From a virus (lineage: Duplodnaviria; Heunggongvirae; Uroviricota; Caudoviricetes): a stretch of DNA of 22,048 nt. The DNA lies in the IMG/VR virus record IMGVR_UViG_3300030444_000103, positions 1 to 22,048 of that record; one strand, written 5' to 3'. Shown here one piece after another: positions 1-16,003 of this stretch. Positions within the stretch are counted from its first letter, which is position 1. Every line of letters starts with the position of its first letter. The translations under genes were made by a program, and so were the position numbers. The notes under the pieces are model-generated. The model saw nothing but the letters and a program-made list of their open reading frames with translations. It had not been told where the DNA came from and did no database searches.

Positions 1-24
1 GATACCGCCAAACGTCACCAGAAA
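1..24 (-). ncRNA. dicF: DicF sRNA, 5' portion only (continues off the left edge)
   Basis: Reverse complement of nt 1-24 is TTTCTGGTGACGTTTGGCGGTATC, which matches the recalled 5' end of E. coli DicF; it lies downstream (minus strand) of the ydfC-like gene as in the dicB operon. Recalled from memory, not searched. Confidence 0.5.
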
Positions 25-364
25 ATTGATAACAGAGGGCGTTGCAGCGGGGTTGTCACTTAAGCGTATGGTCAACCTGACAACCCGGTGTCCTCAACGG
101 GGAAGGAATAACCCCGCCATACTTACCGCCGCGCCATTTCGCGGGTTGCCACAACCGGAAGCGCACGGTCGACGAAAATTTAACGACAGGCTATCTATGA
201 ACCAGCTACCTCGCCGTGCGCTTTCGCGTTATGGTCTGACTTTTCAGGGAAATATCCTTTCAGTAAACTGTCAGTGCCGGATGCTCACCCGTGTCCGGCG
301 CACGCACTCCACCTCACCCGTGGAGAACTCCTTAATTACCAACCTTAGCTTCGTTGGTTAGCTA

Positions 365-583
365 TTAACGCGGGTATGTAATCATTCTGGCAATGCTTAA
401 TGCCGCTGCTTTTTCCAGATTGGTGATATCCTGCTCCAGAGAGAACAGATTTTCAGCCTGCTTAGCCCTGGCTTCATTAGCCCATTTCAGATCCTGCGCT
501 GCATTAATTTTCTGGTGCATCCACTCATAAAGTTCATCATCGGTATAGTCTGGCGCGATGATAACGGGTTCTCGTTTCTGCAT
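365..583 (-). CDS. ydfC: YdfC-like small prophage protein (72 aa)
   Basis: 72-aa ORF on the same strand and upstream of dicF; size and operon position match the K-12 dicA-ydfA-ydfB-ydfC-dicF arrangement. Confidence 0.5.
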   Translation of the reverse strand: MQKREPVIIAPDYTDDELYEWMHQKINAAQDLKWANEARAKQAENLFSLEQDITNLEKAAALSIARMITYPR

Positions 584-612
584 ACTGATTCCTTGCGGTG
601 CTGTTTCGCTTA

Positions 613-741
613 TCAGCCGTTAGATTTTGCCGAACTGGAAAGCGCCTGTTTAAATTCGCTGAAGCTGAGAGCTTCTTCGCCTTCGGCAAGGCCTTCGAAG
701 TATTCTTCGTAAGCCTTTTCCATGATTGTGTCGAAATCCAT
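613..741 (-). CDS. ydfB: YdfB-like small protein (42 aa)
   Basis: Hand translation of the minus strand gives MDFDTIMEKAYEEYFEGLAEGEEALSFSEFKQALSSSAKSNG then stop; below the 60-aa ORF-track cutoff; size and position match ydfB. Confidence 0.45.
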   Translation of the reverse strand: MDFDTIMEKAYEEYFEGLAEGEEALSFSEFKQALSSSAKSNG

Positions 742-742
742 A

Positions 743-898
743 TCACCCACCTGAATTTCTTTCCAGCCAGCGACGCGCTCCAGATTCGGTTTTAAACGTT
801 TTGCTTTTGGTATACGTCATTGCGGTGAACGTGCCGTCCTGGTTTGGAAACACGCCGTACACCAGAGATTCGTTGTTGCCAAGATCGATAGTATCCAT
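743..898 (-). CDS. ydfA: YdfA-like small protein (51 aa)
   Basis: Part of track ORF 743..952; internal ATG at 898 is preceded by GAGG and yields 51 aa (MDTIDLGNNESLVYG...), matching the size and position of ydfA. Confidence 0.45.
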   Translation of the reverse strand: MDTIDLGNNESLVYGVFPNQDGTFTAMTYTKSKTFKTESGARRWLERNSGG

Positions 899-1011
899 GC
901 TGACCTCATTTCCCCTTAACGCCGGGGTAGCGGAACTGTTTGCTGAGAACACCGTGCGGTGTCTTGATGGAAAATAATTTAGAATAACCTAACATGAGAG
1001 GCGAGTGTTTT

Positions 1012-1029
1012 TGTTAGATTGATCTAACA
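1012..1029. promoter_or_regulatory. Operator-like palindrome TGTTAGA-N4-TCTAACA downstream of the repressor gene
   Basis: Near-perfect inverted repeat TTGTTAGATTGATCTAACAA read directly; same half-sites as the site at 1523-1540. Confidence 0.5.
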
Positions 1030-1065
1030 AAAAGGGTGGGCGCAACTAATCACTTGAAAAGAATG

Positions 1066-1473
1066 TTATTTTATTGATTTATTTTTACGCGCTTTAAGCA
1101 TTTCTTCGAAGAGTTTGTTGAAGTTTTCTACTCTTGCGCGCATTTCAGACAGCAAGGCTTCCTGCTCGGAAGATGGAAGAGCATCGAATAATTCGATCAA
1201 TTCTTTGTGGTTGGGAGTTAGCTCTGTTTCCACATGAAGTTCTTGTGCAGGCACTGGTGCCTTGTCTTCGTCACCAAACATTAGCCATGTAGGTGAGCAC
1301 TTCAGAGCATCCGCTAAAGCAAACAATCGTTTTCCGACTGGCTGGGTTTCGTCTCTTTCCCATTGTGAAATTGTGACGTGAGCAACTCCAGCGAGGCGCG
1401 CGGCTTCTCGTTGTGTTAAGCGTAATTCTTTTCGTCGCGCCAGAACTCGCTGGCCCAGGGTTCTTGTATCCAT
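1066..1473 (-). CDS. dicA: XRE-family HTH prophage repressor, DicA-like (135 aa)
   Basis: N-terminal HTH (LRLTQREAARLAGVAHVTISQWE); 135 aa; divergent from a 76-aa Cro-like gene and co-directional with ydfA/B/C-dicF, as for DicA. Confidence 0.7.
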   Translation of the reverse strand: MDTRTLGQRVLARRKELRLTQREAARLAGVAHVTISQWERDETQPVGKRLFALADALKCSPTWLMFGDEDKAPVPAQELHVETELTPNHKELIELFDALPSSEQEALLSEMRARVENFNKLFEEMLKARKNKSIK

Positions 1474-1540
1474 AGTTAGGTAATTCTAATTTTTCTTGAC
1501 TTAGGTATCCCGCGCACAATAATGTTAGAAAAGTCTAACA
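1474..1540. promoter_or_regulatory. Divergent repressor/cro control region with two operator sites
   Basis: Perfect TGTTAGA-aaag-TCTAACA at 1523-1540 and a degenerate copy AGTTAGG-taat-TCTAATT at 1474-1491; TTGACT at 1496-1501 followed 17 nt later by ATAATG gives a candidate rightward promoter overlapping the operator. Confidence 0.5.
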
Positions 1541-1553
1541 AGAGGGGGATTTG

Positions 1554-1781
1554 ATGCTTAAAGTTGACGCAATTACTTTTTTTGGCAGCAAAACAAAGCT
1601 TGCCAATGCCGCAGGAGTGAGGCTGGCAAGTGTTGCTGCTTGGGGGATACTGGTTCCTGAAGGTCGCGCGATGCGTCTACAGGAGGCATCTGGCGGGGAG
1701 CTTCAGTATGATCCCAAAGTTTATGATGAATATCGTAAGACGAAGCGGGCGGGGCGGTTGAACAATGAAAATCACTCCTGA
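1554..1781 (+). CDS. dicC: Cro-like small HTH regulator, DicC / YdaS family
   Basis: Track ORF 1551..1781; ATG at 1554 after GAGGGGGA; divergent from the repressor; start could instead be TTG at 1551. Confidence 0.6.
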   Translation: MLKVDAITFFGSKTKLANAAGVRLASVAAWGILVPEGRAMRLQEASGGELQYDPKVYDEYRKTKRAGRLNNENHS

Positions 1782-2286
1782 ACAGGCTCGTGAGGCTCTG
1801 GATGCCTGGATATGTCGACCAGGAATGACACAGGAGCAGGCGACGATATTAATCACTGAAGCATTCTGGGCTTTGAAAGAGCGCCCGAACATCGATGTTC
1901 AGCGTGTCACAGATGAAGGTGGCGCGGTTGATCAGCGAGCGCTTGGTGTTAATCGAGTGAAGATATTCGAACGCTGGAAGGCTATCGACACCAGGGATAA
2001 GCGTGAAAAGTTCACGGCGCTAGTGCCTGCGATTATGGAGGCTATCCGGATTAGTGATTTCAGGTTGTATCGTGAAATTACTGACGGAAAAAGCATCACG
2101 TGCATGATCGCCGGGTTAAACAAAGAATATGGCGATGTGGTGGAGTCCGGACTGCTTTTTGCTGATCCTGCCGTAGTGGATCGTGAAACTGACGAACTTA
2201 TAGAAAAAGCAATTGCTTTCAAGCTTGCGTATCGACAGCAATACCAACAAAAAGCTGGATGGAATTATGAGCCTTCTTTTTGCTGA
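1765..2286 (+). CDS. YdaT-like prophage protein in the cII position
   Basis: 173-aa ORF overlapping the end of the cro-like gene; family assignment is from weak recalled resemblance only. Confidence 0.5.
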   Translation: MKITPEQAREALDAWICRPGMTQEQATILITEAFWALKERPNIDVQRVTDEGGAVDQRALGVNRVKIFERWKAIDTRDKREKFTALVPAIMEAIRISDFRLYREITDGKSITCMIAGLNKEYGDVVESGLLFADPAVVDRETDELIEKAIAFKLAYRQQYQQKAGWNYEPSFC

Positions 2287-3232
2287 ACGCCCACTGGTTA
2301 TAAACACGCAGCTGGCAATGAAAATTGGCTTAAACGAAGCCATTGTTTTGCAACAACTGCACTACTGGTTGAGAGATACCAACTCCGGCATGGAATGTGA
2401 TGGTGTTCGCTGGATTTATAACACAACGGAACAATGGCTGGAACAGTTCCCATTCTGGTCAGAGTCAACGTTAAAGCGCGCGTTTGCAAGTCTGAAAACG
2501 CTGGGGCTTTTGCGTTGTGAAAAGCTCAATAAATCAAAGCGCGATATGACCAATTTCTACATGATCAACTATGGGAGCGAGCTTTTAGATGGTGGCAAAT
2601 TGAGCGAATCCATCGGTTCAAAATGCGCCGCTCCATCAGGTCAAAATGACACGATGGAAGAGGTCAAAATGAAACGCTCCATTGATTCAAAACGACCCAA
2701 TGTCATCGGGTCAAAATGGCCTGATGATCTTACAGAGAATACAACAGAGATTACTACAGAGAATAAAAACACTTTTCGTCCGGAAGCTTCGCAACCGGAC
2801 CCGCAGACGACTGAACAGGATTTTTTAACCCGGAACTCCGACGCGGTTGTGTTTAGTGCGAAAAAACGCCAGTGGGGTAGCAGGGAGGATTTGGCGTGTG
2901 CGCAGTGGATCTGGGGGCGGATCGTGGGTCTCTACGAACAGGCAGCCAGTGATGATGGCGAGATCATGCGACCAAAAGAGCCTAACTGGACTGCCTGGGC
3001 CAATGACGTGCGCACAATGCGGATGCTGGATGGCAGAAGCCACAGACAAATTTGCGAAATGTTTGGTCGGGTTCAGCGAGATCCATTCTGGGTAAAAAAC
3101 ATCATGAGCCCGTCAAAGCTCCGCGAAAAATGGGACGAACTGGTCATCCGCCTGGGACGTTCACCTGTACAGCGTTGTGTTAATCATATTTCTGAACCGG
3201 ATACAGAAATTCCGCCTGGTTTCAGAGGATAA
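2267..3232 (+). CDS. Phage replication initiator (O-like replisome organiser)
   Basis: Track ORF 2213..3232 with likely ATG at 2267 after GGATGG; N-terminus MSLLFAERPLVINTQLAMKIGLNEAIVLQQLHYWL is typical of replisome-organiser N-domains; iteron-like repeats lie inside the gene. Confidence 0.65.
   Translation: MSLLFAERPLVINTQLAMKIGLNEAIVLQQLHYWLRDTNSGMECDGVRWIYNTTEQWLEQFPFWSESTLKRAFASLKTLGLLRCEKLNKSKRDMTNFYMINYGSELLDGGKLSESIGSKCAAPSGQNDTMEEVKMKRSIDSKRPNVIGSKWPDDLTENTTEITTENKNTFRPEASQPDPQTTEQDFLTRNSDAVVFSAKKRQWGSREDLACAQWIWGRIVGLYEQAASDDGEIMRPKEPNWTAWANDVRTMRMLDGRSHRQICEMFGRVQRDPFWVKNIMSPSKLREKWDELVIRLGRSPVQRCVNHISEPDTEIPPGFRG
2610..2720 (+). repeat. Iteron-like direct repeats (putative ori) inside the replication gene
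   Basis: Five copies of CCATCrGkTCAAAATG-like motifs at about 2610, 2633, 2660, 2681 and 2703, spaced about 22-24 bp. Confidence 0.5.
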
Positions 3233-3272
3233 GTGTTGATTTCAGGTCATGAGGTAATTTTAAGGGGGACTT

Positions 3273-3695
3273 GTGGCAAAAGTTTTTACACAAGAAGAGC
3301 GGGAAAAAATTAAATGGCAGGTGGTGGAACTCGTGCGCCAGAGCGGCCGTGAGACGTTACGGCAACTGGAAGCTAAAACAGGTGCGACTAGATATCTGAT
3401 GAGCGTTCTTGCCAGAGAGCTGGTAGCCAGTGGCGATGTATACAACTCCGGCTACGGGTTATTCCCCTCTGAACAGGCGCGTAAGGACTGGCAAAACGCC
3501 CGCAAAAAACTCTCGAGGGCAAAGGTGAAGAAACCTGCTGTGGTTGATCCGGACCTTATCTGGTCATCACCTGACGGAGAAATACGTCGCTACGACAGTC
3601 GCCTAAACATAATCTGTCGCGAGTGCCGGAAGAGCGAAGTTATGCAGCGCATACTGGCTTTCTATCAGGGTAATTTTCAGGACGTGGCGCAGTGA
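3273..3695 (+). CDS. Hypothetical prophage protein (140 aa), GTG start
   Basis: ORF with AAGGGGGA upstream of a GTG start; its stop overlaps the start of the next gene; no family recognised. Confidence 0.5.
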   Translation: MAKVFTQEEREKIKWQVVELVRQSGRETLRQLEAKTGATRYLMSVLARELVASGDVYNSGYGLFPSEQARKDWQNARKKLSRAKVKKPAVVDPDLIWSSPDGEIRRYDSRLNIICRECRKSEVMQRILAFYQGNFQDVAQ

Positions 3696-4137
3696 GTGCA
3701 CCGGCAACCATTCTTGATATGTGCTGTGGCAGCCGCATGTTCTGGTTCGATAAGTCTGACGAACGGGCGATATTTAGCGATATCAGAAAAGAAGGATACA
3801 CATTACGCAATGGGAGACGCTTGATTATCAGCCCTGACATTATCGCAGATTTTCGTGCATTATCATTTGCAGACGCATCTTTTTCGATGGTTGTATTAGA
3901 CCCTCCGCATCTTGAGCGTGTTGGTGATAACGCCTGGATGGGAAAGAAATATGGACGGCTGAATAAAGATGCCTGGCGTGATGATTTGCGACAGAGATTT
4001 AAAGAAGCTTTTCGGGTGTTGAGGCCGCACGGCGTTCTGATTTTTTAATGGAATGAAACGCAAATACCGGTAAGCCAGATTCTGGCACTGACAGATAGAA
4101 AGCCTGTTATCTGTCAACGAACAGGGAAAAAACGATA
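3692..4137 (+). pseudogene. DNA methyltransferase (DPPY/DPPH-motif type), frameshifted at a T6 run
   Basis: 118-aa ORF containing VVLDPPH ends at TAA within TTTTTT (4041-4046); the next frame continues open (WNETQIPVSQILALTDRKPVICQRTGKKR) to about 4137; no SAM-binding motif follows, so the gene is truncated. Confidence 0.5.
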
Positions 4138-4310
4138 AAACCCACTGGATTATTTTTATGAAAGAGGCATCCAGTGAGTAGATTCGTAAGGTTACAGATA
4201 CGTATATCTGAATAATTAAATTCAGTTCTGTAAATAAAACTTAATCCTTAACCGGATGGATTTCTGCACCCTCAGAACATCAGGAGGCCGCCCGAAAGGG
4301 CGGTAGTGAA

Positions 4311-4493
4311 ATGCGAAAGTTCAAAATTATTATTGAAACGGGAATAGCTGGTGGAGATTTTGAGGATGTATTCGAAGTGGACGATGACGCAACACCTGAT
4401 GAAATTCATGACGGAGCATAAGAAATTTTCTTTAACTACTGCAATTACTCATACCACGAAATAAAAGACGATGAGGAAGAACAAAGTGGCTGA
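4311..4493 (+). pseudogene. Short ORF with an in-frame TAA at 4419-4421
   Basis: Hand translation: MRKFKIIIETGIAGGDFEDVFEVDDDATPDEIHDGA, stop, then EIFFNYCNYSYHEIKDDEEEQSG. Confidence 0.3.
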
Positions 4494-4662
4494 TTTTTGT
4501 TCAGCTAAATATAACATCAGTTTTGAAGAGCGGGATGAACTATTAATGGACTATGGTGAGTTACGCGGTGGAAGTGCTGCTGATGTCGAATCCTAGCGTG
4601 ATGACTATGAAGCGGGAAAAACTCCGGTCGAAGCATATTGTGATGAGTGGGGCGATGAATGA
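4471..4662 (+). pseudogene. Short ORF with an in-frame TAG at 4594-4596
   Basis: Hand translation: MRKNKVADFCSAKYNISFEERDELLMDYGELRGGSAADVES, stop, then RDDYEAGKTPVEAYCDEWGDE; its TGA overlaps the next ATG (ATGA). Confidence 0.3.
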
Positions 4663-4946
4663 GCGAGATTAATTATCAGGAAGGGCATGAAACGGCGGGG
4701 CAAGCAAAACCAGTGACATGGCGATATCGCTACGTGAAAAAAGGCGTTACGGACTTTCAGGGGAAGTAGTGGTCTGGTGACTGGAAATATGTACCGAAAA
4801 AAGAGGATTGTAACGACAGGCCGAACTATCAAATTCAGGCCTTATTCACTGCCTCACCAGTCCCGGTTACATCAGAAGAATTGGTTAAAGCTGTGCACTT
4901 TTATGAACAACTAAAACGCGAAAATCCACCAACATCCGGCAACTAG
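4659..4946 (+). pseudogene. Short ORF with an in-frame TAG at 4767-4769
   Basis: Hand translation: MSEINYQEGHETAGQAKPVTWRYRYVKKGVTDFQGK, stop, then a 58-codon open stretch WSGDWKYVPKKEDCNDRPNYQIQALFTASPVPVTSEELVKAVHFYEQLKRENPPTSGN. Confidence 0.3.
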
Positions 4947-5200
4947 ATTAATGGGTTAACTATGTCGGTTAAACGACCAGCCAACTGAAAAAGCGGAAAC
5001 CTGATTACAGGTTGCCAGATAAGGCAATGAGCTACCTGGCGCGGAACGGACTGATAAGTATGGGGAATGTTTTACGATGAACCTTTAGACTAAAGAGTTT
5101 GTAACGCTATGTAAGTGATTTTTTCTGGTTTAGATATTTATATGTCCGGCCAAATTGAGGTGTGTTTAAATGTAATTGCACATTGATTGTAGGAGGAATA

Positions 5201-5380
5201 ATGAAAAACGCATTGCAGTTTTTGTTTGTTGCGTTCTGGTTGTTCGCATCATGTATGCCCATCATCTTCACAGCAAGGTATATGGAAAAAGTTGATGTTT
5301 TGATATTAATATTTGGATATATAAATGCCCTTTTTTTAGGGGTGTTCATGGCGGTCATGTGCATTGAATACTGGCGGTAA
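5201..5380 (+). CDS. Small hydrophobic (two-helix) membrane protein, 59 aa
   Basis: Strong SD AGGAGG 5 nt before ATG 5201 (inside track ORF 5162..5380); MKNALQFLFVAFWLFASCMPIIFTARYMEKVDVLILIFGYINALFLGVFMAVMCIEYWR; sits in an AT-rich island. Confidence 0.45.
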   Translation: MKNALQFLFVAFWLFASCMPIIFTARYMEKVDVLILIFGYINALFLGVFMAVMCIEYWR

Positions 5381-5559
5381 ATACAGCGAATTCCATTGGT
5401 TTAGTTGGATATTTACTGTGCTGGACAAAAACGGTTTGCGGGGAAATCTTAGTTAAGTAGAATGACTGCGGGTGCTTGAGGCTATCTGCCTCGGGCACGA
5501 ACACCAACGGCAGGTAGAGAAAAGCCCCAGTTAACATTACGCGTCCTGCAAGACGCTTA

Positions 5560-5640
5560 ACATTAATCTGAGGCCAATTTCATGCCAGACACATGTAGGT
5601 TAGCCTCTTACGTGCCGAAAGGCAAGGAGAAGCAGGCTAT
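5560..5640 (+). pseudogene. hok/gef-family 5' region remnant, cut at the start codon
   Basis: GCCTCTTACGTGCCGAAAGGCAAGGAGAAGCAGGCTAT matches the recalled hokC-type leader and SD and resembles the intact hokD start at 8941-8958; the coding sequence is absent after the start-codon position. Confidence 0.4.
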
Positions 5641-7127
5641 TGTTAACACCAAGCTGTAATGTCCCCTTTGAACCATTCTAAAATGTCCCCAGACAATTCT
5701 CTGGGGGATTTTTCATGACCAAAGAAACTGTTACGATGAGTCATAAGGAACTCCACCGACTTCAGATTATTCAGGAGTCAATTAATCGACATATTACTCA
5801 GGAACAAGCTGCGGCACGCATTGGCATTTCTATTCGGCAGGTTAAACGTCTGGTGCAACGGTATAGAAATGAAGGGCCTTCTGGTCTGGTTTCCCACCGA
5901 CGTGGAAAGCGTCCTAATAATTCCTTTTCTACTGAATTCAGAGCAACAGTAATTTTACTCCTCAAAGGCCGTTACGCTGATTTTGGACCTACGTTTGCGT
6001 GCGAAAAATTGCGCGAGATACACGGTTTATCTTTATCCGTTGAAACTCTCAGAAAGTGGATGATAGAAGAGGGGGGTATGGCGTGAACGCCGTCGTAAAA
6101 TTGCCCGTATATATCAACGCCGCATGCGACGACCATCTTACGGTGAACTGATCCAGATTGATGGCTCACCTCATGACTGGTTTGAAAATCGAGGCCCCAG
6201 ATGTACACTGATCGTTTTCATTGATGATGCCACCAGTGCGTTGATGGCGTTGCGTTTTGTGCCTGCTGAAACAACCCGGGCTTACATGGAAACCCTCCGG
6301 GGTTACCTTAATGATCATGGCGTACCGCTCGCTCTCTACTCTGATAGACACAGTATATTCAGGGTAAATAACCCAGAGCGGGAAGGTGAGCTGACCCAGT
6401 TCACTCGTGCGATAAAGACACTGGGCATCGAGCCAATCCATGCCAACAGCCCGCAGGCAAAAGGGCGGGTAGAGCGCGCCAATCAGACACTACAGGACAG
6501 GCTGGTCAAAGAAATGCGGCTTCAGAATATCAGTGATATTGAAACAGCAAATGCATGGTTGCCGACCTTTATTGAAGCCTATAACAACCGGTTCGCTACG
6601 TCGCCTCGTACTACTGATAATGCTCATCTTGATGTGCACCATTCTGAAGAGGAACTGGGTTATATCTTCAGCCTACAGGCGAAGCGCGTTCTGTCTAAAA
6701 ATCTCACTTTCCAGTACAAAAGCAGTGCGTTTCAGGTACGCAGTGAGGGCCGGGGATATCGACTTAGGCATTCGGTTGTTACTGTATGCGAGAACTTTGA
6801 CGGTGAAATTAACGTTCTGTATGACGGGAAAGCGCTGGGCTGGGAAAAGTATGTTGATGGCCCGGAGCCTATACCACTGGATGATGAAAAGAGTGTCCAT
6901 GAACGAGTGGATAATGCCCGTATTGATTTACGCTCAAAATACTATGTTAAACCTAAAGCTGACCATCCCTGGCTTACGCGCCGAACGCAAAGTCATCAGC
7001 AAGTTAAGCCCCCGAAGTTACCTAAAAAGAAGCCTGATCCCGATAAAAAAGATTGAAACCAAGATCGATTCGGTTGAGTGCATATCCATTCATAGGGTAG
7101 ATTCTTAAGTCGCGTTTCTGGTGTTCA
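5641..7127 (+). mobile_element. Insertion sequence with a DDE (rve) transposase, IS481/ISNCY-like; boundaries approximate
   Basis: Begins where hok homology ends; candidate imperfect terminal inverted repeats TGTTAACACCA (left) and TGAACACCA (right, reverse complement); no clear target-site duplication. Confidence 0.4.
5715..7056 (+). pseudogene. DDE transposase split into two ORFs by a frameshift in a G6 run (6071-6076)
   Basis: ORF 5715..6086 carries the N-terminal HTH; ORF 6124..7056 carries the integrase core; the alternative frame across the G run reads ...EEGVWRERRRKIARIYQRRMRRPSYGELIQ..., joining them. Confidence 0.7.
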
Positions 7128-7492
7128 TTTTCGGGTGGTTTGTTACTTGTTTTACCGGGGATATGCCAGAAACGCGCTGAGTCAGTCTGGGCGGTGCGCG
7201 TAATGAGGCGTTATGGTAAATAGCCTATGCTAATGTCCGCTAAGAGCAAGAAGCGGAAGTTGGCAGTTTTGTGGACTGTCCCCACAAAAGTGACTACAGA
7301 AATAGTTGCAATTCATAATTGATCATGGGTTGTCAGTTAAACTCGTGGCGATTTAAATAGACTAATTGGGAGTGCGTCCATTACTTATATCTTGTAATGT
7401 TAACTATCAGAAATGATACAAAGATAATATGTCTTTAAAGAAAAGGCTGATGGCGAAAAGTGGCCCGATGAGGGCCACAATACGGCTGTCAC

Positions 7493-7825
7493 TTAGACGT
7501 AAATATCAATGGTGCCAGCGGTATTTGTATCGTCTTTTTTCTCTTCTTTTTTATCAGGCTGAACTGTCGCGTCTTTATTCTTTTTCTCTGCCTGCTGCCT
7601 TAACAACTGCTCCAGTTGAGCCCTGAGGCTTTCAATTTGCTTCTGTACCAATGCAGCCATTTCTTTTTTCTGCTGTGTCGTCATCCCCTCTTCCGATGAG
7701 ATTTTCCCAAGCTTTTCAGTCAGCACCTGAATTTGTCTTGTGATTTTGGCTATTTCTGATGTTCCTTCCGGGGCGGAGTTGTTTGAAATAACGGTTGAGG
7801 TATTTCCCTGAATTGTGACAGACAT
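7493..7825 (-). CDS. flxA: FlxA-like protein (110 aa)
   Basis: 110-aa coiled-coil-like ORF matching the recalled size and context of Qin flxA; preceded by a sigma-28 promoter match. Confidence 0.65.
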   Translation of the reverse strand: MSVTIQGNTSTVISNNSAPEGTSEIAKITRQIQVLTEKLGKISSEEGMTTQQKKEMAALVQKQIESLRAQLEQLLRQQAEKKNKDATVQPDKKEEKKDDTNTAGTIDIYV

Positions 7826-7848
7826 AGATTTCTCCTTTTAAAAAAGCA

Positions 7849-7875
7849 CTATCGGCATGCACAAAAAAATCTTTA
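7849..7875 (-). promoter_or_regulatory. Sigma-28 (FliA) promoter for flxA
   Basis: Minus strand reads TAAAGATT-N11-GCCGATAG against consensus TAAAGTTT-N11-GCCGATAA, about 25 nt upstream of the start codon. Confidence 0.6.
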
Positions 7876-8320
7876 ATCGTATTTCTTGTGTCATTAATTG
7901 TTTGATGTTCAGATTGTTTTCCTCGCGGGCTGGCGCGCCTCAGAAAGTAAAGCTTGTTGACAGGGGTAAACGTTCGGCAATAATTTTCTGCCGCATGCGG
8001 GTGTTGCATAAAACGTGCTACGTTCCTTTATCGACAGGTCAGGTCACCGCTCACCCGCCGACGAGAAAGCAACACTGACATGCTAAAGCAAAAAATAGAT
8101 GAATAAGTTGAGTTGTGCATATGTAGCCTGACCGTCACAAAGTATATGGTGTCTGTACCAGTAAGATGATGGCCGGACTCTTTAAAAACGAGCTGACCTG
8201 CACAATACAGGATGGACTTAGCAATGGCTGCTCCTGGCACAAAGCGGACAGTGATCACCGTTCTTACGACTACTTTCTGACTTCCTTCGTGACTTGCCCT
8301 AAGCATGTTGTAGTGCGATA

Positions 8321-8346
8321 CTTGTAATGACATTTGTAATTACAAG
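8321..8346 (+). promoter_or_regulatory. relBE operator-like palindrome (relO)
   Basis: CTTGTAATGACATTTGTAATTACAAG just upstream of relB; matches the known pattern of TTGTAAT/ATTACAA repeats. Confidence 0.5.
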
Positions 8347-8357
8347 AGGTGTAAGAC

Positions 8358-8597
8358 ATGGGTAGCATTAACCTGCGTATTGACGATGAACTTAAAGCGC
8401 GTTCTTACGCCGCGCTTGAAAAAATGGGTGTAACTCCTTCTGAAGCGCTTCGTCTCATGCTCGAGTATATCGCTGACAATGAACGCTTGCCGTTCAAACA
8501 GACACTCCTGAGTGATGAAGATGCTGAACTTGTGGAGATAGTGAAAGAACGGCTTCGTAATCCTAAGCCAGTACGTGTGACGCTGGATGAACTCTGA
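8358..8597 (+). CDS. relB: RelB antitoxin
   Basis: 79 aa, MGSINLRIDDELKARSYAALEKMGVTPSEALRLMLEYIADNERLPF...; stop overlaps the relE ATG (TGATG). Confidence 0.85.
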   Translation: MGSINLRIDDELKARSYAALEKMGVTPSEALRLMLEYIADNERLPFKQTLLSDEDAELVEIVKERLRNPKPVRVTLDEL

Positions 8598-8884
8598 TGG
8601 CGTATTTTCTGGATTTTGACGAGCGGGCACTAAAGGAATGGCGAAAGCTGGGCTCGACGGTACGTGAACAGTTGAAAAAGAAGCTGGTTGAAGTACTTGA
8701 GTCACCCCGGATTGAAGCAAACAAGCTCCGTGGTATGCCTGATTGTTACAAGATTAAGCTCCGGTCTTCAGGCTATCGCCTTGTATACCAGGTTATAGAC
8801 GAGAAAGTTGTCGTTTTCGTGATTTCTGTTGGGAAAAGAGAACGCTCGGAAGTATATAGCGAGGCGGTCAAACGCATTCTCTGA
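8597..8884 (+). CDS. relE: RelE mRNA-interferase toxin
   Basis: 95 aa, MAYFLDFDERALKEWRKLGSTVREQLKKKLVEVLESPRIEANKLRGMPDCYKIKLRSSGYRLVYQVIDEKVVVFVISVGKRERSEVY... Confidence 0.85.
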   Translation: MAYFLDFDERALKEWRKLGSTVREQLKKKLVEVLESPRIEANKLRGMPDCYKIKLRSSGYRLVYQVIDEKVVVFVISVGKRERSEVYSEAVKRIL

Positions 8885-8955
8885 ACCAAAGCATGACATC
8901 TCTGTTTCGCACCGAAGGTGACACTTCTGCTTTGCGTTGACAGGAGAAGCAGGCT

Positions 8956-9111
8956 ATGAAGCAGCAAAAGGCGATGTTAATCGCCCTGATCGTCATCTGT
9001 TTAACCGTCATAGTGACGGCACTGGTAACGAGGAAAGACCTCTGCGAGGTACGAATCCGAACCGGCCAGACGGAGGTCGCTGTCTTCACAGCTTACGAAC
9101 CTGAGGAGTAA
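8956..9111 (+). CDS. hokD: HokD (RelF) type I toxin, 51 aa
   Basis: Hand translation: MKQQKAMLIALIVICLTVIVTALVTRKDLCEVRIRTGQTEVAVFTAYEPEE; below the ORF-track cutoff. Confidence 0.85.
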   Translation: MKQQKAMLIALIVICLTVIVTALVTRKDLCEVRIRTGQTEVAVFTAYEPEE

Positions 9112-9178
9112 GAGACCCGGCGGGGGAGAAATCCCTCGCCACCTCTGATGTGGCAGGCATCCTCAACGCACCCGCACT

Positions 9179-9207
9179 TAACCCGCTTCGGCGGGTTTTT
9201 GTTTTTA
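9179..9207 (+). terminator. Rho-independent terminator after hokD
   Basis: ACCCGCTTCGGCGGGT hairpin followed by a T-run. Confidence 0.6.
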
Positions 9208-9327
9208 TTTTCAACGCGTTTGAAGTTCTGGACGGTGCCGGAATAGAATCAAAAATACTTAAGTAGCGCGCAGGGATAAGAGGGATGGTCCCTTAAAGGG
9301 GAGAGCTAATTATCCGGAAGGATTCTG

Positions 9328-9579
9328 ATGATGAACATCGAAGAACTGCGTAAAATTTTTTGTGAAGATGGCCTCTATGCTGTGTGCGTTGAAAATGGAA
9401 ATCTTGTTAGTCATTACCGCATTATGTGTTTGCGAAAGAATGGGGCTGCGTTAATTAATTTTGTGGATGCTCGGGTCACGGACGGATTTATCTTGCGCGA
9501 AGGTGAGTTTGTCACTTCATTACAGGCATTGAAAGAGATCGGAATAAAAGCTGGCTTTTCTGCTTTTTCAGGAGAATAA
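9328..9579 (+). CDS. Rem-like small prophage protein (83 aa)
   Basis: ORF with GGAAGGA SD; size and position after hokD match Qin rem; the rem sequence itself is not recalled. Confidence 0.5.
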   Translation: MMNIEELRKIFCEDGLYAVCVENGNLVSHYRIMCLRKNGAALINFVDARVTDGFILREGEFVTSLQALKEIGIKAGFSAFSGE

Positions 9580-9645
9580 ACTCATCTACAATCTTGCGCG
9601 GGGCTGAACTCCCGCTGAGTAACACCGTGCCACCGGAGAAAACCG

Positions 9646-9924
9646 ATGGCACGCAACGCAAAATATTACAATTCTGATAATTCGCCCGTTCTTGCCTGCA
9701 CGCACGGGCGGTATTCTCACGCATTCAAGTCTGAATGGTTCCAGCACCCTCCATGCACTGCAGAACAGGCCGAATGGCTGATTCATTCTTACCGCAGGCG
9801 CGGGTTCGAGGTTAAGAAAGCTCTCAGTCTCGACTATCGGCACTGGATAATCTCTGTCAGGCTGCCTTATTCCGAACGCCCACCACGTGCGTCCCGCACT
9901 TTCCAGCAACGGATCTGGAGGTAA
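9646..9924 (+). CDS. Hypothetical protein (92 aa), translationally coupled to the next gene
   Basis: GGAGAAAACCG before the ATG; TAA at 9922-9924 is followed 1 nt later by the GTG start of the downstream gene. Confidence 0.4.
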   Translation: MARNAKYYNSDNSPVLACTHGRYSHAFKSEWFQHPPCTAEQAEWLIHSYRRRGFEVKKALSLDYRHWIISVRLPYSERPPRASRTFQQRIWR

Positions 9925-9925
9925 C

Positions 9926-10975
9926 GTGCGGGTATTACTTAGACCTGTTCTGGTGCCTGAGCTTGGGCTGGTGGTCCTTAAGCCGGGCCGTGAATCCATA
10001 CAGATATTTCATAATCCTCGAGTGCTGGTGGAACCGGAACCAAAAAGCATGCGTAATCTGCCATCCGGAGTCGTTCCTGCCGTTCGCCAGCCGCTGGCGG
10101 AAGACAAAACATTGCTGCCGTTTTTTAGTAACGAACGGGTGATTCGTGCTGCTGGCGGCGTTGGCGCATTGTCCGACTGGCTATTACGTCATGTTACATC
10201 CTGCCAGTGGCCTAATGGCGATTACCATCACACTGAAACAGTCATTCACCGTTATGGTACCGGCGCAATGGTGTTGTGCTGGCACTGCGACAACCAACTG
10301 CGTGACCAGACATCGGAATCACTGGAGCTGCTTGCTCAACAAAATCTGACAGCATGGGTGATTGACGTCATCCGTCACGCAATAAGCGGTACGCAGGAGC
10401 GGGAATTATCTTTGGCTGAATTATCCTGGTGGGCGGTCTGCAATCAGGTGGTGGATGCACTACCTGAGGCTGTATCGCGTCGTTCGCTGGGATTACCAGC
10501 GGAAAAAATCTGCTCGGTGTACCGCGAAAGCGACATCGTACCGGGAGAGCAGACCGCCACCAGCATATTGAAACAACGCACAAAAAATCTTGCACCGTTG
10601 CCTTACGCCCACCAGCAACAAAAATCACCACAGGAAAAGACGGTGGTAAGCATCACCGTTGATCCAGAGTCTCCGGAATCTTTCATGAAGCTGCCTAAAC
10701 GTCGCCGCTGGGTTAAGGAGAAATACACACGTTGGGTTAAGACACAGCCGTGTGCTTGCTGCGGTATGCCAGCCGACGATCCGCATCATCTGATTGGTCA
10801 CGGGCAGGGCGGAATGGGAACAAAAGCACATGATCTCTTTGTGTTGCCTTTGTGCAGAAAGCATCACAACGAGCTGCATACGGATACAGTGGCATTTGAA
10901 GATAAGTATGGCTCCCAACTGGAGCTGATATTTCGTTTTATCGATCGCGCGCTGGCAATTGGCGTACTGGCGTAA
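9926..10975 (+). CDS. YdfU-like DUF968 protein with a C-terminal Cys/His (HNH-like) motif, 349 aa
   Basis: Track ORF 9887..10975; GTG at 9926 after GGAGGT; C-terminus ...QPCACCGMPADDPHHLIGHGQGGMGTKAHDLFVLPLCRKHHNELH... Confidence 0.6.
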   Translation: MRVLLRPVLVPELGLVVLKPGRESIQIFHNPRVLVEPEPKSMRNLPSGVVPAVRQPLAEDKTLLPFFSNERVIRAAGGVGALSDWLLRHVTSCQWPNGDYHHTETVIHRYGTGAMVLCWHCDNQLRDQTSESLELLAQQNLTAWVIDVIRHAISGTQERELSLAELSWWAVCNQVVDALPEAVSRRSLGLPAEKICSVYRESDIVPGEQTATSILKQRTKNLAPLPYAHQQQKSPQEKTVVSITVDPESPESFMKLPKRRRWVKEKYTRWVKTQPCACCGMPADDPHHLIGHGQGGMGTKAHDLFVLPLCRKHHNELHTDTVAFEDKYGSQLELIFRFIDRALAIGVLA

Positions 10976-10988
10976 GTGGAGAACGAGC

Positions 10989-11741
10989 ATGAACCTTGAA
11001 GCCTTACCAAAATATTACTCCCCAAAATCTCCAAAATTGAGCGATGACGCTCCAGCGACAGGCACCGGTTGTTTAACAATTACGGATGTAATGGCAGCGC
11101 AGGGGATGGTGCAGTCGAAAGCACCACTTGGGTTGGCCTTATTTCTGGCAAAAGTTGGTGTTCAGGACCCTCAGTTTGCGATTGAAGGCCTGCTAAATTA
11201 CGCGATGGCACTGGATAACCCGACATTGAACAAATTGAGTGAAGAAATCCGGTTACAGATTATTCCTTACCTCGTGAGTTTTGCCTTTGCTGATTACTCC
11301 AGGTCTGCGGCAAGTAAGGCTCGCTGTGAGCATTGTTCAGGTACGGGATTTTATAATGTATTGCGCGAAGTGGTGAAACACTACAGACGCGGGGAATCTG
11401 TAATCAAGGAAGAATGGGTGAAGGAACTATGTCAGCATTGCCATGGTAAGGGCGAAGCCAGCACAGCGTGCAGAGGGTGTAAGGGTAAAGGGATTGTTCT
11501 GGATGAAAAAAGAACCCGGTTTCATGGCGTACCGGTATATAAGATTTGTGGGCGTTGTAATGGAAACCGGTTTAGTCGTTTACCGACCACGCTGGCACGA
11601 CGTCATGTCCAGAAGCTGGTACCAGACCTGACCGATTATCAGTGGTATAAGGGGTATGCGGACGTCATTGGTAAACTGGTAACAAAGTGCTGGCAGGAAG
11701 AAGCATACGCGGAAGCGCAATTGAGGAAGGTGACGAGATAA
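10989..11741 (+). CDS. Late-gene antiterminator Q (phage 82 / QuuQ-like), 250 aa
   Basis: Track ORF 10959..11741 with ATG 10989 after GGAG; several CxxC pairs; size and sequence match the recalled Qin QuuQ. Confidence 0.8.
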   Translation: MNLEALPKYYSPKSPKLSDDAPATGTGCLTITDVMAAQGMVQSKAPLGLALFLAKVGVQDPQFAIEGLLNYAMALDNPTLNKLSEEIRLQIIPYLVSFAFADYSRSAASKARCEHCSGTGFYNVLREVVKHYRRGESVIKEEWVKELCQHCHGKGEASTACRGCKGKGIVLDEKRTRFHGVPVYKICGRCNGNRFSRLPTTLARRHVQKLVPDLTDYQWYKGYADVIGKLVTKCWQEEAYAEAQLRKVTR

Positions 11742-11772
11742 ATGATTTTTGCTGAAGATGGCGACATGATGT

Positions 11773-11801
11773 TTGCATTTTTCAAAAAATATGGATAAAA
11801 T
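11773..11801 (+). promoter_or_regulatory. pR'-like late promoter
   Basis: TTGCAT-N17-TAAAAT immediately downstream of Q. Confidence 0.55.
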
Positions 11802-11846
11802 TTTTTCAACGATGGGCTTTGTATACCCGACGTTAAGAAAAAGTAG

Positions 11847-11872
11847 AAAACCCGCTGATGAGCGGGTTTTGT
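11847..11872 (+). terminator. tR'-like intrinsic terminator
   Basis: AAAACCCGCT-GATG-AGCGGGTTTT hairpin about 45 nt downstream of the promoter -10. Confidence 0.6.
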
Positions 11873-12162
11873 GCTTTAAATGGGGCAATGGTAATGTTGA
11901 ATCTCATCCCGGGACTCATGTCTGTTAACTTATTATTTAGCTGGTGACTTGGTTATTTGCCTGATGTTTAAAATGTTTTCTTCCAGTACAATGTCCCTAA
12001 ACACAATGAGTCTGCTTATTATATTATTAGCAGAGCTATTACGGCCAAAGTACAGCATAAGCTTTTAAAGCCAATCAACCAGTCATCAAGACAGACGGGG
12101 TTATTCATAAAAACTCTCCATGTGTGATCCGATGGGGCCTGAAATTAAAGCTTTAATATAGC

Positions 12163-12375
12163 TCATGAAAGGTAAACATTGGCAGCTGAAGGGCCACGCA
12201 GACCATTTATCCGGCAAAATTCCACGCGTAATCCGGTGGTAATTTCTTCTGCATCGCGGAGATTGAGCGCTGAGACATGAAGCTGGACATCGATACGACC
12301 ATCGGATGGGGTGATAAGACCCTTGCCGCTTTTGCCGTCAAAGGTTTTGACAATTCCTGTCATTTTACGGGACAA
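12163..12375 (-). CDS. cspF: Cold-shock-domain protein, CspF/CspH-like
   Basis: 70 aa, [26 protein letters not shown]...[16 protein letters not shown]. Confidence 0.8.
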
Positions 12376-12675
12376 AAAAATTCCTTAATACTGATAACTT
12401 GGCGCACTATACACACGTTCCTGAAGAAAGCTATAGTTTTTTGATGGGGTTGAAGATGGCTGGATGTCTAAAATAAACATTGCTTCATATGTTCAACTAT
12501 GCGTTAATGATTGCGTCGGTTTGAAGAACAGACGATATACGAAGTAGTTTACTAAAGCAGTTCTCATTTCAGGTGTTATTCACTTATTCCTTCTTTGAGT
12601 CTCTCCAATTAAGTACGAAGTCGTTTCTGTTATGCAAACCATTTATGCCGAAAGGCTCAAGTTAAGGAATGTAGA

Positions 12676-12891
12676 ATGTCAAATAAAATGACTGGTTTAG
12701 TAAAATGGTTTAACGCTGATAAAGGTTTCGGCTTTATTTCTCCTGTTGATGGTAGTAAAGATGTGTTTGTGCATTTTTCTGCGATTCAGAATGATAATTA
12801 TCGAACCTTATTTGAAGGTCAAAAGGTTACCTTCTCTATAGAGAGTGGTGCTAAAGGTCCTGCAGCAGCAAATGTCATCATTACTGATTAA
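12676..12891 (+). CDS. cspB: Cold-shock protein, CspB-like
   Basis: 71 aa, [38 protein letters not shown]...; divergent from the cspF-like gene. Confidence 0.85.
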
Positions 12892-13173
12892 AATTCATCG
12901 CTCGTCTGTATACGATAACGAAGAAGGCTGATGCCTGAGTAGAGATACGGACAGAGTAGTGAATATTGGATCTCTTTAATAAAAAGTAAGGAGGTCCAAT
13001 ACATGAAACAATGGCTAGCATATTTGGCAAAATCTTAATCAGGAAAAGTATGCTAACCATTGTGGTGAAGTGCAGGTTTGCTGCATGAATAGTTTTACAG
13101 CAGAAGCTAACTGCTGGCATGGCAAAACAAAGTGCGTAAGTGGATGACTCCCACAAAAAGCACCACAATCTCA

Positions 13174-13197
13174 AACCCGCTCAGGCGGGTTTTTTAT
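13174..13197 (+). terminator. Intrinsic terminator
   Basis: AACCCGCTCAGGCGGGTT hairpin followed by TTTTTT. Confidence 0.55.
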
Positions 13198-13254
13198 TAT
13201 CTGCTTTAAATATATTATTAAAATATAAAAAATACTTGTTACTAATAAAATCAA

Positions 13255-13425
13255 TCAGGCTACAGCTTTAAGATTTGTCTGGAATACTTTGTTGCAATGA
13301 GGGCAGATCAAAAGGGCACCTTTTTGTACTCTTGAAAAACTGTGTTCTGACTCTTGGGTGCAGTTTGGGCAGGAACATTTAACGAGATAATTACGGCGTG
13401 ATTTTGAGTTTTTACGTTCTGACAT
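13255..13425 (-). CDS. Small zinc-ribbon protein (56 aa)
   Basis: Internal ATG of track ORF 13255..13476 with AGGAAA SD; MSERKNSKSRRNYLVKCSCPNCTQ...ICPHCNKVF carries paired Cys motifs. Confidence 0.4.
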   Translation of the reverse strand: MSERKNSKSRRNYLVKCSCPNCTQESEHSFSRVQKGALLICPHCNKVFQTNLKAVA

Positions 13426-13644
13426 AGGCTTTTCCTGTATAAATGGCCGTATACAGTACACTAAATATGAAAACATTTCTCGTATTATTATTTTATATAT
13501 GACTTTCTTTCAAAATAATTACCCACATTTTTAATGTGTATGTTTTTTTAGCGCCGTTGAGAACAACGTGTGCTGTCAAAACTACCCCGTAGACTCCGAT
13601 CTTTTCAAACATATTGCACCATCCGTGTACATCGGGGTGAGGAT

Positions 13645-13860
13645 ATGAAATCAATGGATAAGTTAACAACAGGTGTTGCCTATGGCACATCGGCGGGTAA
13701 TGCTGGTTTCTGGGCATTGCAGTTACTCGATAAAGTAACTCCGTCACAGTGGGCTGCAATCGGTGTGCTGGGTAGCCTGGTTTTTGGCCTGCTGACGTAT
13801 CTGACAAATCTTTATTTCAAGATTAAAGAAGACAGGCGTAAGGCTGCGAGAGGAGAGTAA
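13645..13860 (+). CDS. Pinholin (phage 21 S-like), 71 aa, dual-start motif
   Basis: [71 protein letters not shown] after GGGGTGAGG; close to recalled S21. Confidence 0.8.
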
Positions 13861-13864
13861 TCCA

Positions 13865-14172
13865 ATGACTCAAGACTATGAACTGGTTGTGAAAGGAGTC
13901 CGTAATTTTGAGAATAAAGTTACGGTAACTGTAGCCTTACAGGACAAAGAACGCTTTGACGGTGAAATTTTTGACCTGGATGTCGCCATGGACCGTGTTG
14001 AAGGAGCTGCGCTGGAGTTTTATGAGGCAGCAGCCAGAAGGAGCGTCCGGCAAGTCTTCCTGGAAGTAGCAGAAAAATTGTCAGAAAAAGTTGAGTCTTA
14101 TCTGCAGCATCAGTACTCCTTTAAGATTGAAAATCCTGCCAATAAGCACGAGCGTCCTCATCATAAATATAT

Positions 14173-14176
<4 letters not shown>
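13865..14176 (+). CDS. YdfR-like hypothetical protein (103 aa) between holin and endolysin
   Basis: 103-aa ORF; its stop overlaps the endolysin ATG (ATGA); same size and position as ydfR in Qin. Confidence 0.55.
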
Positions 14177-15200
<1,024 letters not shown>

Positions 15201-15981: not shown

Positions 15982-16003
15982 AGGCTCCTTCGGGAGCTTT
16001 TTT
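15982..16003 (+). terminator. Intrinsic terminator
   Basis: AGGCTCC-TTCG-GGAGCTT hairpin followed by TTTTTT. Confidence 0.5.

What the first reader, a model, noticed from the sequence alone, without database searches (positions are those of the whole stretch)
4140..5100. Three tandem, translationally coupled short ORFs, each broken by exactly one in-frame stop codon
In an otherwise gene-dense rightward operon there is about 1 kb with no plus-strand ORF of 60 aa or more. Hand translation shows three consecutive ORFs (4311-4493, 4471-4662, 4659-4946), each with a single mid-ORF nonsense codon (TAA 4419, TAG 4594, TAG 4767), spaced about 174 nt apart. The frames stay open after each stop (23, 21 and 58 codons), and the second ORF's TGA overlaps the third's ATG (ATGA). 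There are no frameshifts, which is atypical for ordinary pseudogene decay. Alternatives are three independent nonsense mutations, three real 36-41 aa peptides, or stop-codon read-through. A GNRA-loop hairpin (GCCGCCC-GAAA-GGGCGG, about 4284-4303) sits just before the first ATG.
Basis: seen in the sequence. Interest (0 to 1): 0.6.

Follow-up and report, generated by a model that had tools for sequence, protein, structure and literature searches.

The report
Decayed accessory genes in Qin prophage
The three "interrupted" short reading frames are ordinary dead genes (already flagged as pseudogenes in RefSeq) in the defective Qin prophage of E. coli; intact copies with normal codons at those positions exist in many other prophages and phages.

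Summary
The stops are real: TAA 4419, TAG 4594 and TAG 4767, with open frames after each. The window is an E. coli Qin-type cryptic lambdoid prophage. RefSeq already marks 4311-4493 (DUF7167, internal stop) and 4659-5080 (frameshifted; internal stop) as pseudogenes.

Intact homologues of 60, 58 and 171 aa in other E. coli prophages carry AAA (Lys), TGG (Trp) and CAG/CCG/ATG/TCG/CTG at these positions. The post-stop segments alone still match the C-terminal parts of phrog_1997, phrog_519 and phrog_660.

The "no frameshifts" claim fails. The upstream methyltransferase gene has its own nonsense codon and a +1 frameshift.

The stops arose at different times. ORF3-TAG also occurs where ORF1 and ORF2 are intact, and the Qin lineage keeps adding indels. 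No suppressor tRNA, Rfam element or unusual RNA structure supports read-through.

Verdict: ordinary, already annotated pseudogene decay of dispensable nin-region-like genes.

Two curiosities remain. All three stops fall at ancestral codon 37 (naive chance about 7e-5, post hoc). The GNRA hairpin sits between a strong Shine-Dalgarno and the ORF1 ATG, like the T4 gene 38/25 split ribosome-binding site.

The parts
3692..4181 (+). SAM-dependent (DNA) methyltransferase pseudogene. It carries the nonsense codon TAA at 4046-4048 (AAA/Lys119 in the intact 157-aa homologue) and a +1 G insertion near 4125.
   Evidence: PGAP pseudogene 'frameshifted; internal stop'. Alignment with the intact O111 RM9322 gene. 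Matches phrog_954.
4210..4310 (+). Conserved intergenic module of about 100 nt that precedes ORF1. The same module is found behind different upstream genes and, in RM9322, in front of a different downstream gene.
   Evidence: Alignments.
4282..4287 (+). Shine-Dalgarno-like AGGAGG. It lies 23 nt upstream of the ORF1 ATG, or 7 nt if the hairpin is folded out.
   Evidence: Sequence. Invariant or nearly invariant in 18 variants.
4287..4304 (+). GC-rich hairpin: 7-bp stem (the closing pair is G.U) with a GAAA (GNRA) tetraloop.
   Evidence: Present in both the MFE and centroid folds. Across 18 variants 94% of cells are paired, loops are GAAA or GGCA, and there is one compensatory G-C>A-U change, but covariation does not exceed shuffles.
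4311..4493 (+). ORF1: pseudogene of a 60-aa DUF7167 / phrog_1997 protein. The nonsense codon TAA at 4419-4421 replaces AAA (Lys37).
4486..4662 (+). ORF2: pseudogene of a 58-aa phrog_519 protein. The ancestral start codon ATG is GTG here. The nonsense codon TAG at 4594-4596 replaces TGG (Trp37). An in-frame ATG at 4471 is lineage-specific.
4659..5080 (+). ORF3: pseudogene of a 171-aa phrog_660 protein. Lesions: TAG at 4767-4769 (codon 37; CAG/CCG/ATG/TCG/CTG elsewhere), a 90-nt in-frame deletion at 4932|4933, a second nonsense codon TAG at 4944-4946 (CAG elsewhere), and a 4-nt deletion at 4977|4978. The original stop is TGA 5078-5080.
   Evidence: PGAP 'frameshifted; internal stop'. Alignments and translations. 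Population data.

Best explanation
The region holds three small early-operon accessory genes of a lambdoid prophage that have been inactivated: a DUF7167/phrog_1997 gene, a phrog_519 gene and a phrog_660 gene. They lie between the replication genes and the hok/Q region, and they overlap at their start and stop codons like lambda nin-region genes (that comparison is from established knowledge of lambda).

In the Qin cryptic-prophage lineage each gene acquired a nonsense substitution. ORF3 additionally acquired deletions, a second nonsense codon and a frameshift. The methyltransferase gene just upstream was broken in the same way.

Inferred consequences: ribosomes terminate at the first stop, only 36-residue N-terminal fragments can be made (if any), and no full-length product is produced. 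The genes are dispensable for the host and for the prophage, so the lesions are neutral, or mildly favoured, and are simply inherited clonally.

Shown here: the homology, the ancestral sense codons, the additional lesions, the lineage restriction and the staggered origin of the stops. Inferred: the absence of function and of read-through.
For: 1. Source and annotation. Window 2-17569 is 99.97% identical to E. coli 07-4299, a Qin-type prophage with ydfABC, relBE, hokD, rem, ydfU and ydfT. There PGAP marks 4311-4493 as 'DUF7167, internal stop' and 4659-5080 as 'frameshifted; internal stop'.

2. Intact homologues. Copies of 60, 58 and 171 aa exist in E. coli R12, EC332 and P15-385. They carry AAA, TGG and CCG/ATG/CAG at the three positions.

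3. Post-stop homology. The post-stop peptides alone match the C-terminal profile positions of phrog_1997 (E 3.6e-7), phrog_519 (4e-6) and phrog_660 (1e-14).

4. Further lesions. ORF3 has a 90-nt deletion, a second TAG and a 4-nt deletion. The methyltransferase gene has K119* and a +1 G.

5. Staggered origin. ORF3-TAG occurs in 27 distinct IMG/VR regions where the ORF1 and ORF2 positions still read AAA and TGG, and also in strain MRSN352231. ORF1-TAA and ORF2-TAG are seen only together, in 13 distinct regions.

6. Other lineages decay differently. ORF1 has Q58*, Y46* and frameshifts; ORF2 has G44* and frameshifts; ORF3 has A6>A7/A8 slippage and other stops. Only about 29 of 112 ORF3 copies are intact.

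7. Continuing decay inside the Qin lineage. There is a 1-nt deletion at 4743 in 6 haplotypes, A6>A8 in one, and ORF2 TAG>TAA in one.

8. Not an assembly error. The exact stop-bearing 81-mers occur in 104, 457 and 487 complete genomes. Most 1-mismatch ORF1 hits also carry TAA.

9. No recoding signals. The only tRNA in the window is argW (CCT). Rfam finds nothing in 4050-5250. Folds downstream of the stops are unremarkable, with z-scores of -0.69, +1.02 and +0.35.
Against: All three stops lie exactly 36 codons after the ancestral start of their gene. The naive chance of this is about 7e-5. It is post hoc, but unexplained.

The 21 residues after the ORF2 stop are identical to those of intact alleles. 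Mosaic recombination near that point explains this equally well.

Polymorphism within the lineage is too sparse (3 nonsynonymous, 3 synonymous changes) to demonstrate relaxed selection directly.

Expression was not measured.
Confidence: 0.93

Rival explanations
1. Programmed stop-codon read-through or suppression: the stops are decoded at a useful rate, so full-length ORF1 and ORF2 (and the ORF3 N-terminal part) are still made at a low, regulated level.
For: The frames stay open after each stop. The ORF2 post-stop peptide is 100% conserved.
Against: The stops are present in only one lineage; homologues have sense codons. ORF3 has further disabling lesions downstream. The window encodes no suppressor tRNA. 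There is no Rfam element and no unusual structure after the stops. One haplotype has ORF2 TAG>TAA, and sub-lineages add frameshifts. TAA is the most efficiently terminated stop codon in E. coli (established knowledge).
Confidence: 0.02
2. The three 36-residue N-terminal fragments are themselves functional small proteins, selected as truncated forms.
For: All three truncations leave exactly 36 residues counted from the ancestral start (chance estimate). The ORF1 translation-initiation region (Shine-Dalgarno plus hairpin) is intact.
Against: ORF2 has lost its ATG (GTG now) and carries 9-10 replacements at residues that are invariant or nearly so in intact alleles. ORF3-TAG arose separately from the other two stops. 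In 6 Qin haplotypes a 1-nt deletion at 4743 destroys the ORF3 36-mer. Within-lineage variants in the ORF1 fragment are nonsynonymous. There is no known precedent or mechanism.
Confidence: 0.03
3. Sequencing or assembly error: the stops are not in the real genome.
For: None found.
Against: The identical stop-bearing sequences recur in hundreds of independently assembled complete genomes, in IMG/VR contigs and in phage record PV340562.
Confidence: 0

Closest known systems
Pseudogenes of cryptic lambdoid prophages of E. coli (Qin/Kim, Rac, DLP12), as annotated by NCBI PGAP
   Same: Same element: a Qin-type prophage with ydfABC, relBE-hokD, rem, ydfU and cspB/F/I. The genes are broken by nonsense codons, indels and IS insertions. 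Two of the three ORFs and the methyltransferase gene are already tagged as pseudogenes in RefSeq.
   Different: ORF2 is left unannotated in RefSeq records of this lineage ('none' under the match). The shared codon index of the three stops has not been remarked on.
Lambda nin-region genes: small, dispensable, translationally coupled ORFs between the replication genes and Q (established knowledge)
   Same: Same position in the rightward early operon: after the O-like and DUF977 genes and before hok, ydfU and the Q-like ydfT. The genes are short and have overlapping stop/start codons (an 8-nt overlap and ATGA). They are dispensable.
   Different: They are not sequence homologues of lambda nin genes. 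They belong to DUF7167/phrog_1997, phrog_519 and phrog_660, all of unknown function.
Split Shine-Dalgarno / structured translation-initiation region of T4 genes 38 and 25 (review PMC3014915, citing Nivinskas 1999 and Malys & Nivinskas 2009)
   Same: A strong Shine-Dalgarno sequence lies too far from the AUG (23 nt here; 22 and 27 nt in T4). A stable hairpin sits wholly between the two and would bring the spacing to 7 nt (5 and 11 nt in T4).
   Different: Unrelated sequence and phage type. There is no experimental support here, and covariation is inconclusive. The hairpin could instead be an RNA-stability or processing element.

Membership tests
Pseudogene by nonsense mutation | Intact homologues carry sense codons at the stop positions | tested here: met
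   AAA, TGG and CAG/CCG/ATG/TCG/CTG in R12, EC332, P15-385, 2A and IMG/VR contigs.
Pseudogene by nonsense mutation | Sequence after the stop is homologous to the C-terminal part of the intact protein | tested here: met
   The post-stop peptides alone hit phrog_1997 positions 38-57, phrog_519 positions 117-137 and phrog_660 positions 72-118.
Pseudogene by nonsense mutation | The stop is derived and restricted to a lineage; other lesions accumulate | tested here: met
   The ORF1 and ORF2 stops occur only in the Qin lineage. ORF3 carries four lesions here. Sub-lineages add a 1-nt deletion, A6>A8 and TAG>TAA.
Pseudogene by nonsense mutation | No full-length product is made | not testable with these tools
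   Needs proteomics, Ribo-seq or reporter fusions.
Programmed stop-codon read-through / recoding | The stop codon is conserved at the same position across homologues | tested here: not met
   Sense codons in all homologues outside one lineage.
Programmed stop-codon read-through / recoding | A cognate suppressor tRNA or a stimulatory downstream RNA element | tested here: not met
   The only tRNA in the window is argW, tRNA-Arg(CCT). No Rfam hit in 4050-5250. Downstream folds have z-scores of -0.69, +1.02 and +0.35. Host-encoded suppressors outside the window could not be checked.
Programmed stop-codon read-through / recoding | Purifying selection on the post-stop segment after the stop arose | tested here: inconclusive
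   Only 6 substitutions segregate in the lineage (3 nonsynonymous, 3 synonymous). In ORF3, frameshifts arise.
Pfam PF23768 (DUF7167), for ORF1 | Score above the Pfam gathering threshold | tested here: met
   The intact R12 homologue scores 52.1 bits against a cut-off of 24.4. The window copy with X at the stop scores 98.8 bits to phrog_1997. PGAP gives the same name.
Split Shine-Dalgarno translation-initiation region (T4 gene 38/25 type) | Strong Shine-Dalgarno at a non-functional linear distance from the AUG, with a hairpin wholly between them that restores a spacing of 5-11 nt | tested here: met
   AGGAGG at 4282-4287, ATG at 4311 (23 nt apart). The predicted 7-bp hairpin at 4287-4304 leaves 6-7 nt. 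The T4 spacings come from PMC3014915.
Split Shine-Dalgarno translation-initiation region (T4 gene 38/25 type) | The hairpin is maintained by compensatory change | tested here: inconclusive
   94% of cells are paired. There is one G-C>A-U double change, several G.U changes, and both loops are GNRA. But 7 cells are unpaired, and 284-299 of 500 shuffles do as well.
Split Shine-Dalgarno translation-initiation region (T4 gene 38/25 type) | Destabilising the stem lowers translation | not testable with these tools
   Needs a lacZ or GFP fusion with stem mutants.

The most novel reading that the evidence does not exclude
The placement of the three nonsense codons is not random. Each lies exactly 36 codons after the ancestral start of its gene (4311>4419, 4486>4594, 4659>4767). 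This would reflect an unknown position-specific mutational or selective process, for example selection for co-ordinated truncation of three coupled small proteins. The alternative is three unrelated hits.
Probability: 0.03. Interest if true: 0.55.

Novelty: already known. Interest (0 to 1): 0.08.

Why it matters
It matters little. The finding is a textbook case of gene decay in a defective prophage that about a tenth of sequenced E. coli carry. The annotation pipeline already flags most of it.

Three small points are useful:
- ORF2 is an unannotated pseudogene of a phrog_519 gene.
- The apparent natural end of ORF3 is a second nonsense codon.
- The A6 run in ORF3 is a recurrent slippage site.

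The Shine-Dalgarno / GNRA hairpin / AUG cassette would be a neat lambdoid example of a split ribosome-binding site if confirmed, but that is a minor extension of a known mechanism.

Tried and rejected
1. Paralogy of the three genes, which could have explained the regular 174-nt spacing. BLASTP finds no similarity between them.

2. Read-through signals. The tRNA scan, the Rfam searches (gathering threshold on the whole window, E-value 1 or below on 4050-5250) and folds of the 72 nt from each stop codon onward found nothing.

3. dN/dS of the window alleles against intact alleles. ORF2 is 0.18-0.27, against 0.05-0.11 among intact alleles. This is suggestive, but it is confounded by a deeply divergent mosaic 5' segment, so I did not use it as proof.

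4. Within-lineage polymorphism. Too few sites.

5. Covariation test of the hairpin. It does not exceed shuffles.

6. Function of the intact proteins. Pfam gives only DUF7167. PHROGs gives families of unknown function. NCBIfam gives nothing. PDB sequence search with ORF3 returns only spurious designed-protein hits.

7. I first assumed the whole window equals strain 07-4299. That is wrong beyond 17.57 kb, so the terminase and portal annotations do not apply to the window.

8. The large protein-database searches, structure prediction and fold search were not used. The answer did not depend on them.

Full report
**Observation**

ORF1 (4311-4493) has TAA at 4419. The frame 4471-4662 has TAG at 4594. 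The frame 4659-4946 has TAG at 4767. The frames remain open for 23, 21 and 58 codons after the stops, and there is an ATGA overlap at 4659-4662. No plus-strand ORF of 50 aa or more lies between 4048 and 5162. The hairpin exists: a 7-bp stem at 4287-4293 / 4298-4304 with a GAAA loop, present in both the MFE and centroid folds.

**Where the window comes from**

The 1-kb region is 100% identical to E. coli 07-4299 (NZ_CP027462.1). At 80% coverage or more it is found in 1,202 of 5,426 complete E. coli genomes.

Window 2-17569 is 99.97% identical to that record. It is a Qin-type cryptic lambdoid prophage, with these genes in order:
- ydfC, ydfB and ydfA
- a CI-like repressor and a Cro-like regulator
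- YdaT-like, O-like and DUF977 genes
- the methyltransferase gene, then the region in question
- an IS remnant, flxA, ydfV, relBE, hokD and rem
- ydfU and ydfT (Q-like), then the csp genes and the lysis genes

Beyond 17.57 kb the window differs from that strain. There it continues into IS1, intS, argW, yfdC and mlaA.

In RefSeq, PGAP already annotates three pseudogenes here:
- 4311-4493: 'DUF7167 family protein, internal stop'
- 4659-5080: 'hypothetical protein, frameshifted; internal stop'
- 3737-4181: 'SAM-dependent methyltransferase, frameshifted; internal stop'

**Intact homologues**

In E. coli R12, EC332 and P15-385 the same three genes are intact and arranged in the same way: 60 aa, 58 aa and 171 aa, with an 8-nt overlap and an ATGA overlap. 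Alignment gives the ancestral codons:

| Gene | Stop in window | Codon in intact homologues |
|---|---|---|
| ORF1 | TAA 4419 | AAA (Lys37) |
| ORF2 | TAG 4594 | TGG (Trp37) |
| ORF3 | TAG 4767 | hypervariable codon 37: CAG, CCG, ATG, TCG or CTG |

The true start of ORF2 is the codon at 4486, which is ATG in homologues and GTG here.

ORF3 did not end at 4946. That TAG replaces CAG. The window copy also lacks 90 nt (junction 4932|4933) and 4 nt (4977|4978). The original stop is TGA 5078-5080. So the claims of 'one stop each' and 'no frameshifts' do not hold for ORF3.

The gene upstream is broken too. The methyltransferase has AAA>TAA at 4046 (K119*) and a +1 G near 4125, compared with the intact 157-aa gene of O111 RM9322.

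**Families**

The intact proteins, and the window copies with X at the stop, belong to families of unknown function:
- ORF1: PF23768 (DUF7167) and phrog_1997
- ORF2: phrog_519
- ORF3: phrog_660

The post-stop peptides alone still match the C-terminal profile positions of these families, with E-values of 3.6e-7, 4e-6 and 1e-14. The three proteins are not paralogues of one another. NCBIfam and a PDB sequence search add nothing.

**Population picture**

The exact 81-mers around the stops occur in complete genomes as follows:
- ORF1: 104 genomes. Most of a further 519 one-mismatch hits differ at 4400, not at the stop.
- ORF2: 457 genomes.
- ORF3: 487 genomes.

So these are not assembly errors. The phage record PhiR42_1 (from ECOR13) carries the same three stops at 99.3% identity.

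Counts below are distinct IMG/VR regions: 112 scored for lesions, 104 for the codon cross-tabulation.
- ORF1-TAA and ORF2-TAG always occur together, in 13 regions.
- ORF3-TAG also occurs in 27 regions where the ORF1 and ORF2 positions still read AAA and TGG. This is also the case in strain MRSN352231.

The stops therefore arose at different times.

Other lineages are broken elsewhere:
- ORF1: Q58*, Y46* and frameshifts
- ORF2: G44* and frameshifts
- ORF3: A6>A7/A8 slippage at 4737-4742, stops at codon 120, and others
- Only about 29 of 112 ORF3 copies are intact.

Inside the Qin lineage decay continues. There is a 1-nt deletion at 4743 in 6 haplotypes, A6>A8 in one, and ORF2 TAG>TAA in one.

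**Read-through**

- The only tRNA in the window is argW, tRNA-Arg(CCT).
- Rfam finds nothing in 4050-5250 even at E-value 1.
- Folds of the 72 nt from each stop codon onward are no more stable than shuffled controls.
- Together with the lineage restriction of the stops and the extra lesions in ORF3, this gives no support for recoding.
- dN/dS is higher for the window's ORF2 (0.18-0.27 against 0.05-0.11), but it is confounded by a divergent mosaic segment.
- Within-lineage polymorphism is too sparse to be informative.

**Mechanism**

The best explanation is ordinary pseudogenisation of dispensable, nin-region-like accessory genes in a defective prophage.

Shown:
- homology to intact phage genes
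- the ancestral sense codons
- multiple lesions in ORF3 and the neighbouring gene
- staggered origin of the stops
- continuing decay inside the lineage

Inferred:
- termination at the first stop of each gene
- at most 36-residue fragments
- no function

**Unexplained coincidence**

Counted from the ancestral starts, all three stops are at codon 37, exactly 108 nt after each start. I modelled one random stop-creating substitution per gene. Under that model the chance that all three share a codon index is about 7e-5, or about 8e-4 if a tolerance of one codon is allowed. This is a post hoc pattern. ORF3-TAG clearly arose separately from the other two, and I know of no mechanism that would produce it. 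I therefore treat it as coincidence and record it as the only odd feature.

**The hairpin**

AGGAGG (4282-4287) lies 23 nt from the ORF1 ATG. The 16-18-nt hairpin fills the gap and would leave about 7 nt between the two. This is the geometry of the split Shine-Dalgarno sites of T4 genes 38 and 25, where spacings of 22 and 27 nt are reduced to 5 and 11 nt (PMC3014915).

Across 18 sequence variants:
- 94% of cells are paired.
- The loops are GAAA or GGCA, both GNRA.
- There is one G-C>A-U double change and several U.G changes. U.G pairs are allowed only in plus-strand RNA.
- Some variants carry A.C mismatches, and the counts do not exceed shuffles.

The roughly 100-nt module that contains the hairpin also precedes a different gene in RM9322, and it follows different upstream genes elsewhere. 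A translational-enhancer role is plausible but unproven.

**Verdict**

The feature is real but ordinary, and it is already annotated. Interest is low.

Noticed in passing
window 3692-4181 (+): The methyltransferase gene just upstream is also a pseudogene. It has an in-frame nonsense codon (AAA>TAA at 4046-4048, K119*) and a +1 G near 4125. An intact 157-aa homologue exists in E. coli O111 RM9322. Other RefSeq records annotate the truncated 118-aa ORF as an intact protein.
   Followed up: yes
window 4210-4310 (+); L214 about 1010-1110: The roughly 100-nt intergenic module with AGGAGG and the GNRA hairpin is a portable cassette. It precedes a different gene in RM9322 and follows different upstream genes in R12 and MRSN352231, with the mosaic joint at the start codon. 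The geometry matches a T4 gene 38/25-type split Shine-Dalgarno (23 nt reduced to about 7 nt).
   Followed up: partly
window 5470-5641 (+) and 8942-9206 (+): The hok/sok locus is split. Rfam sok (RF01794, 99.8 bits) lies at 5470-5641, but hokD is at 8956-9111. The two halves are contiguous in MRSN352231. A 3.3-kb insert (5641-8941) carries an IS1202-like remnant, ydfW, flxA, ydfV and relBE. This separates hokD from its sok/mok control region and places it behind relBE.
   Followed up: partly
window 5201-5380 (+): An unannotated 59-aa hydrophobic ORF (MKNALQFLFVAFWLFAS...) with an AGGAGG Shine-Dalgarno 6 nt upstream. It is conserved downstream of ORF3 in related prophages and has no PHROG or NCBIfam hit. 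Phage record PhiR42_1 instead annotates an ORF on the opposite strand here.
   Followed up: partly
window 17570-22048: The Qin prophage sequence ends at an IS1 and continues into intS, argW (tRNA-Arg CCT, 19773-19844, minus strand), yfdC and mlaA. This is the CPS-53/KpLE1 attachment region. No complete genome in the collection contains this junction in one piece, so it is probably an IS1-mediated rearrangement in the source strain.
   Followed up: partly
window 4737-4742 (+): The A6 run in ORF3 is a recurrent slippage site. A7 and A8 alleles are the commonest way this gene is broken in other E. coli prophages, for example MRSN352231 and many IMG/VR contigs.
   Followed up: yes
window 4767-4769 (ORF3 codon 37): This codon is hypervariable among intact homologues (Gln, Pro, Met, Ser, Leu), and the neighbouring residues also vary (K/E/N at codon 36). 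The nonsense allele sits at an unconstrained site.
   Followed up: partly
window 12515-12907 and 15418-15803 (+): Two full-length cspA-type thermoregulator 5' UTR matches (RF01766), upstream of cspB and cspI. This is as expected for Qin.
   Followed up: no
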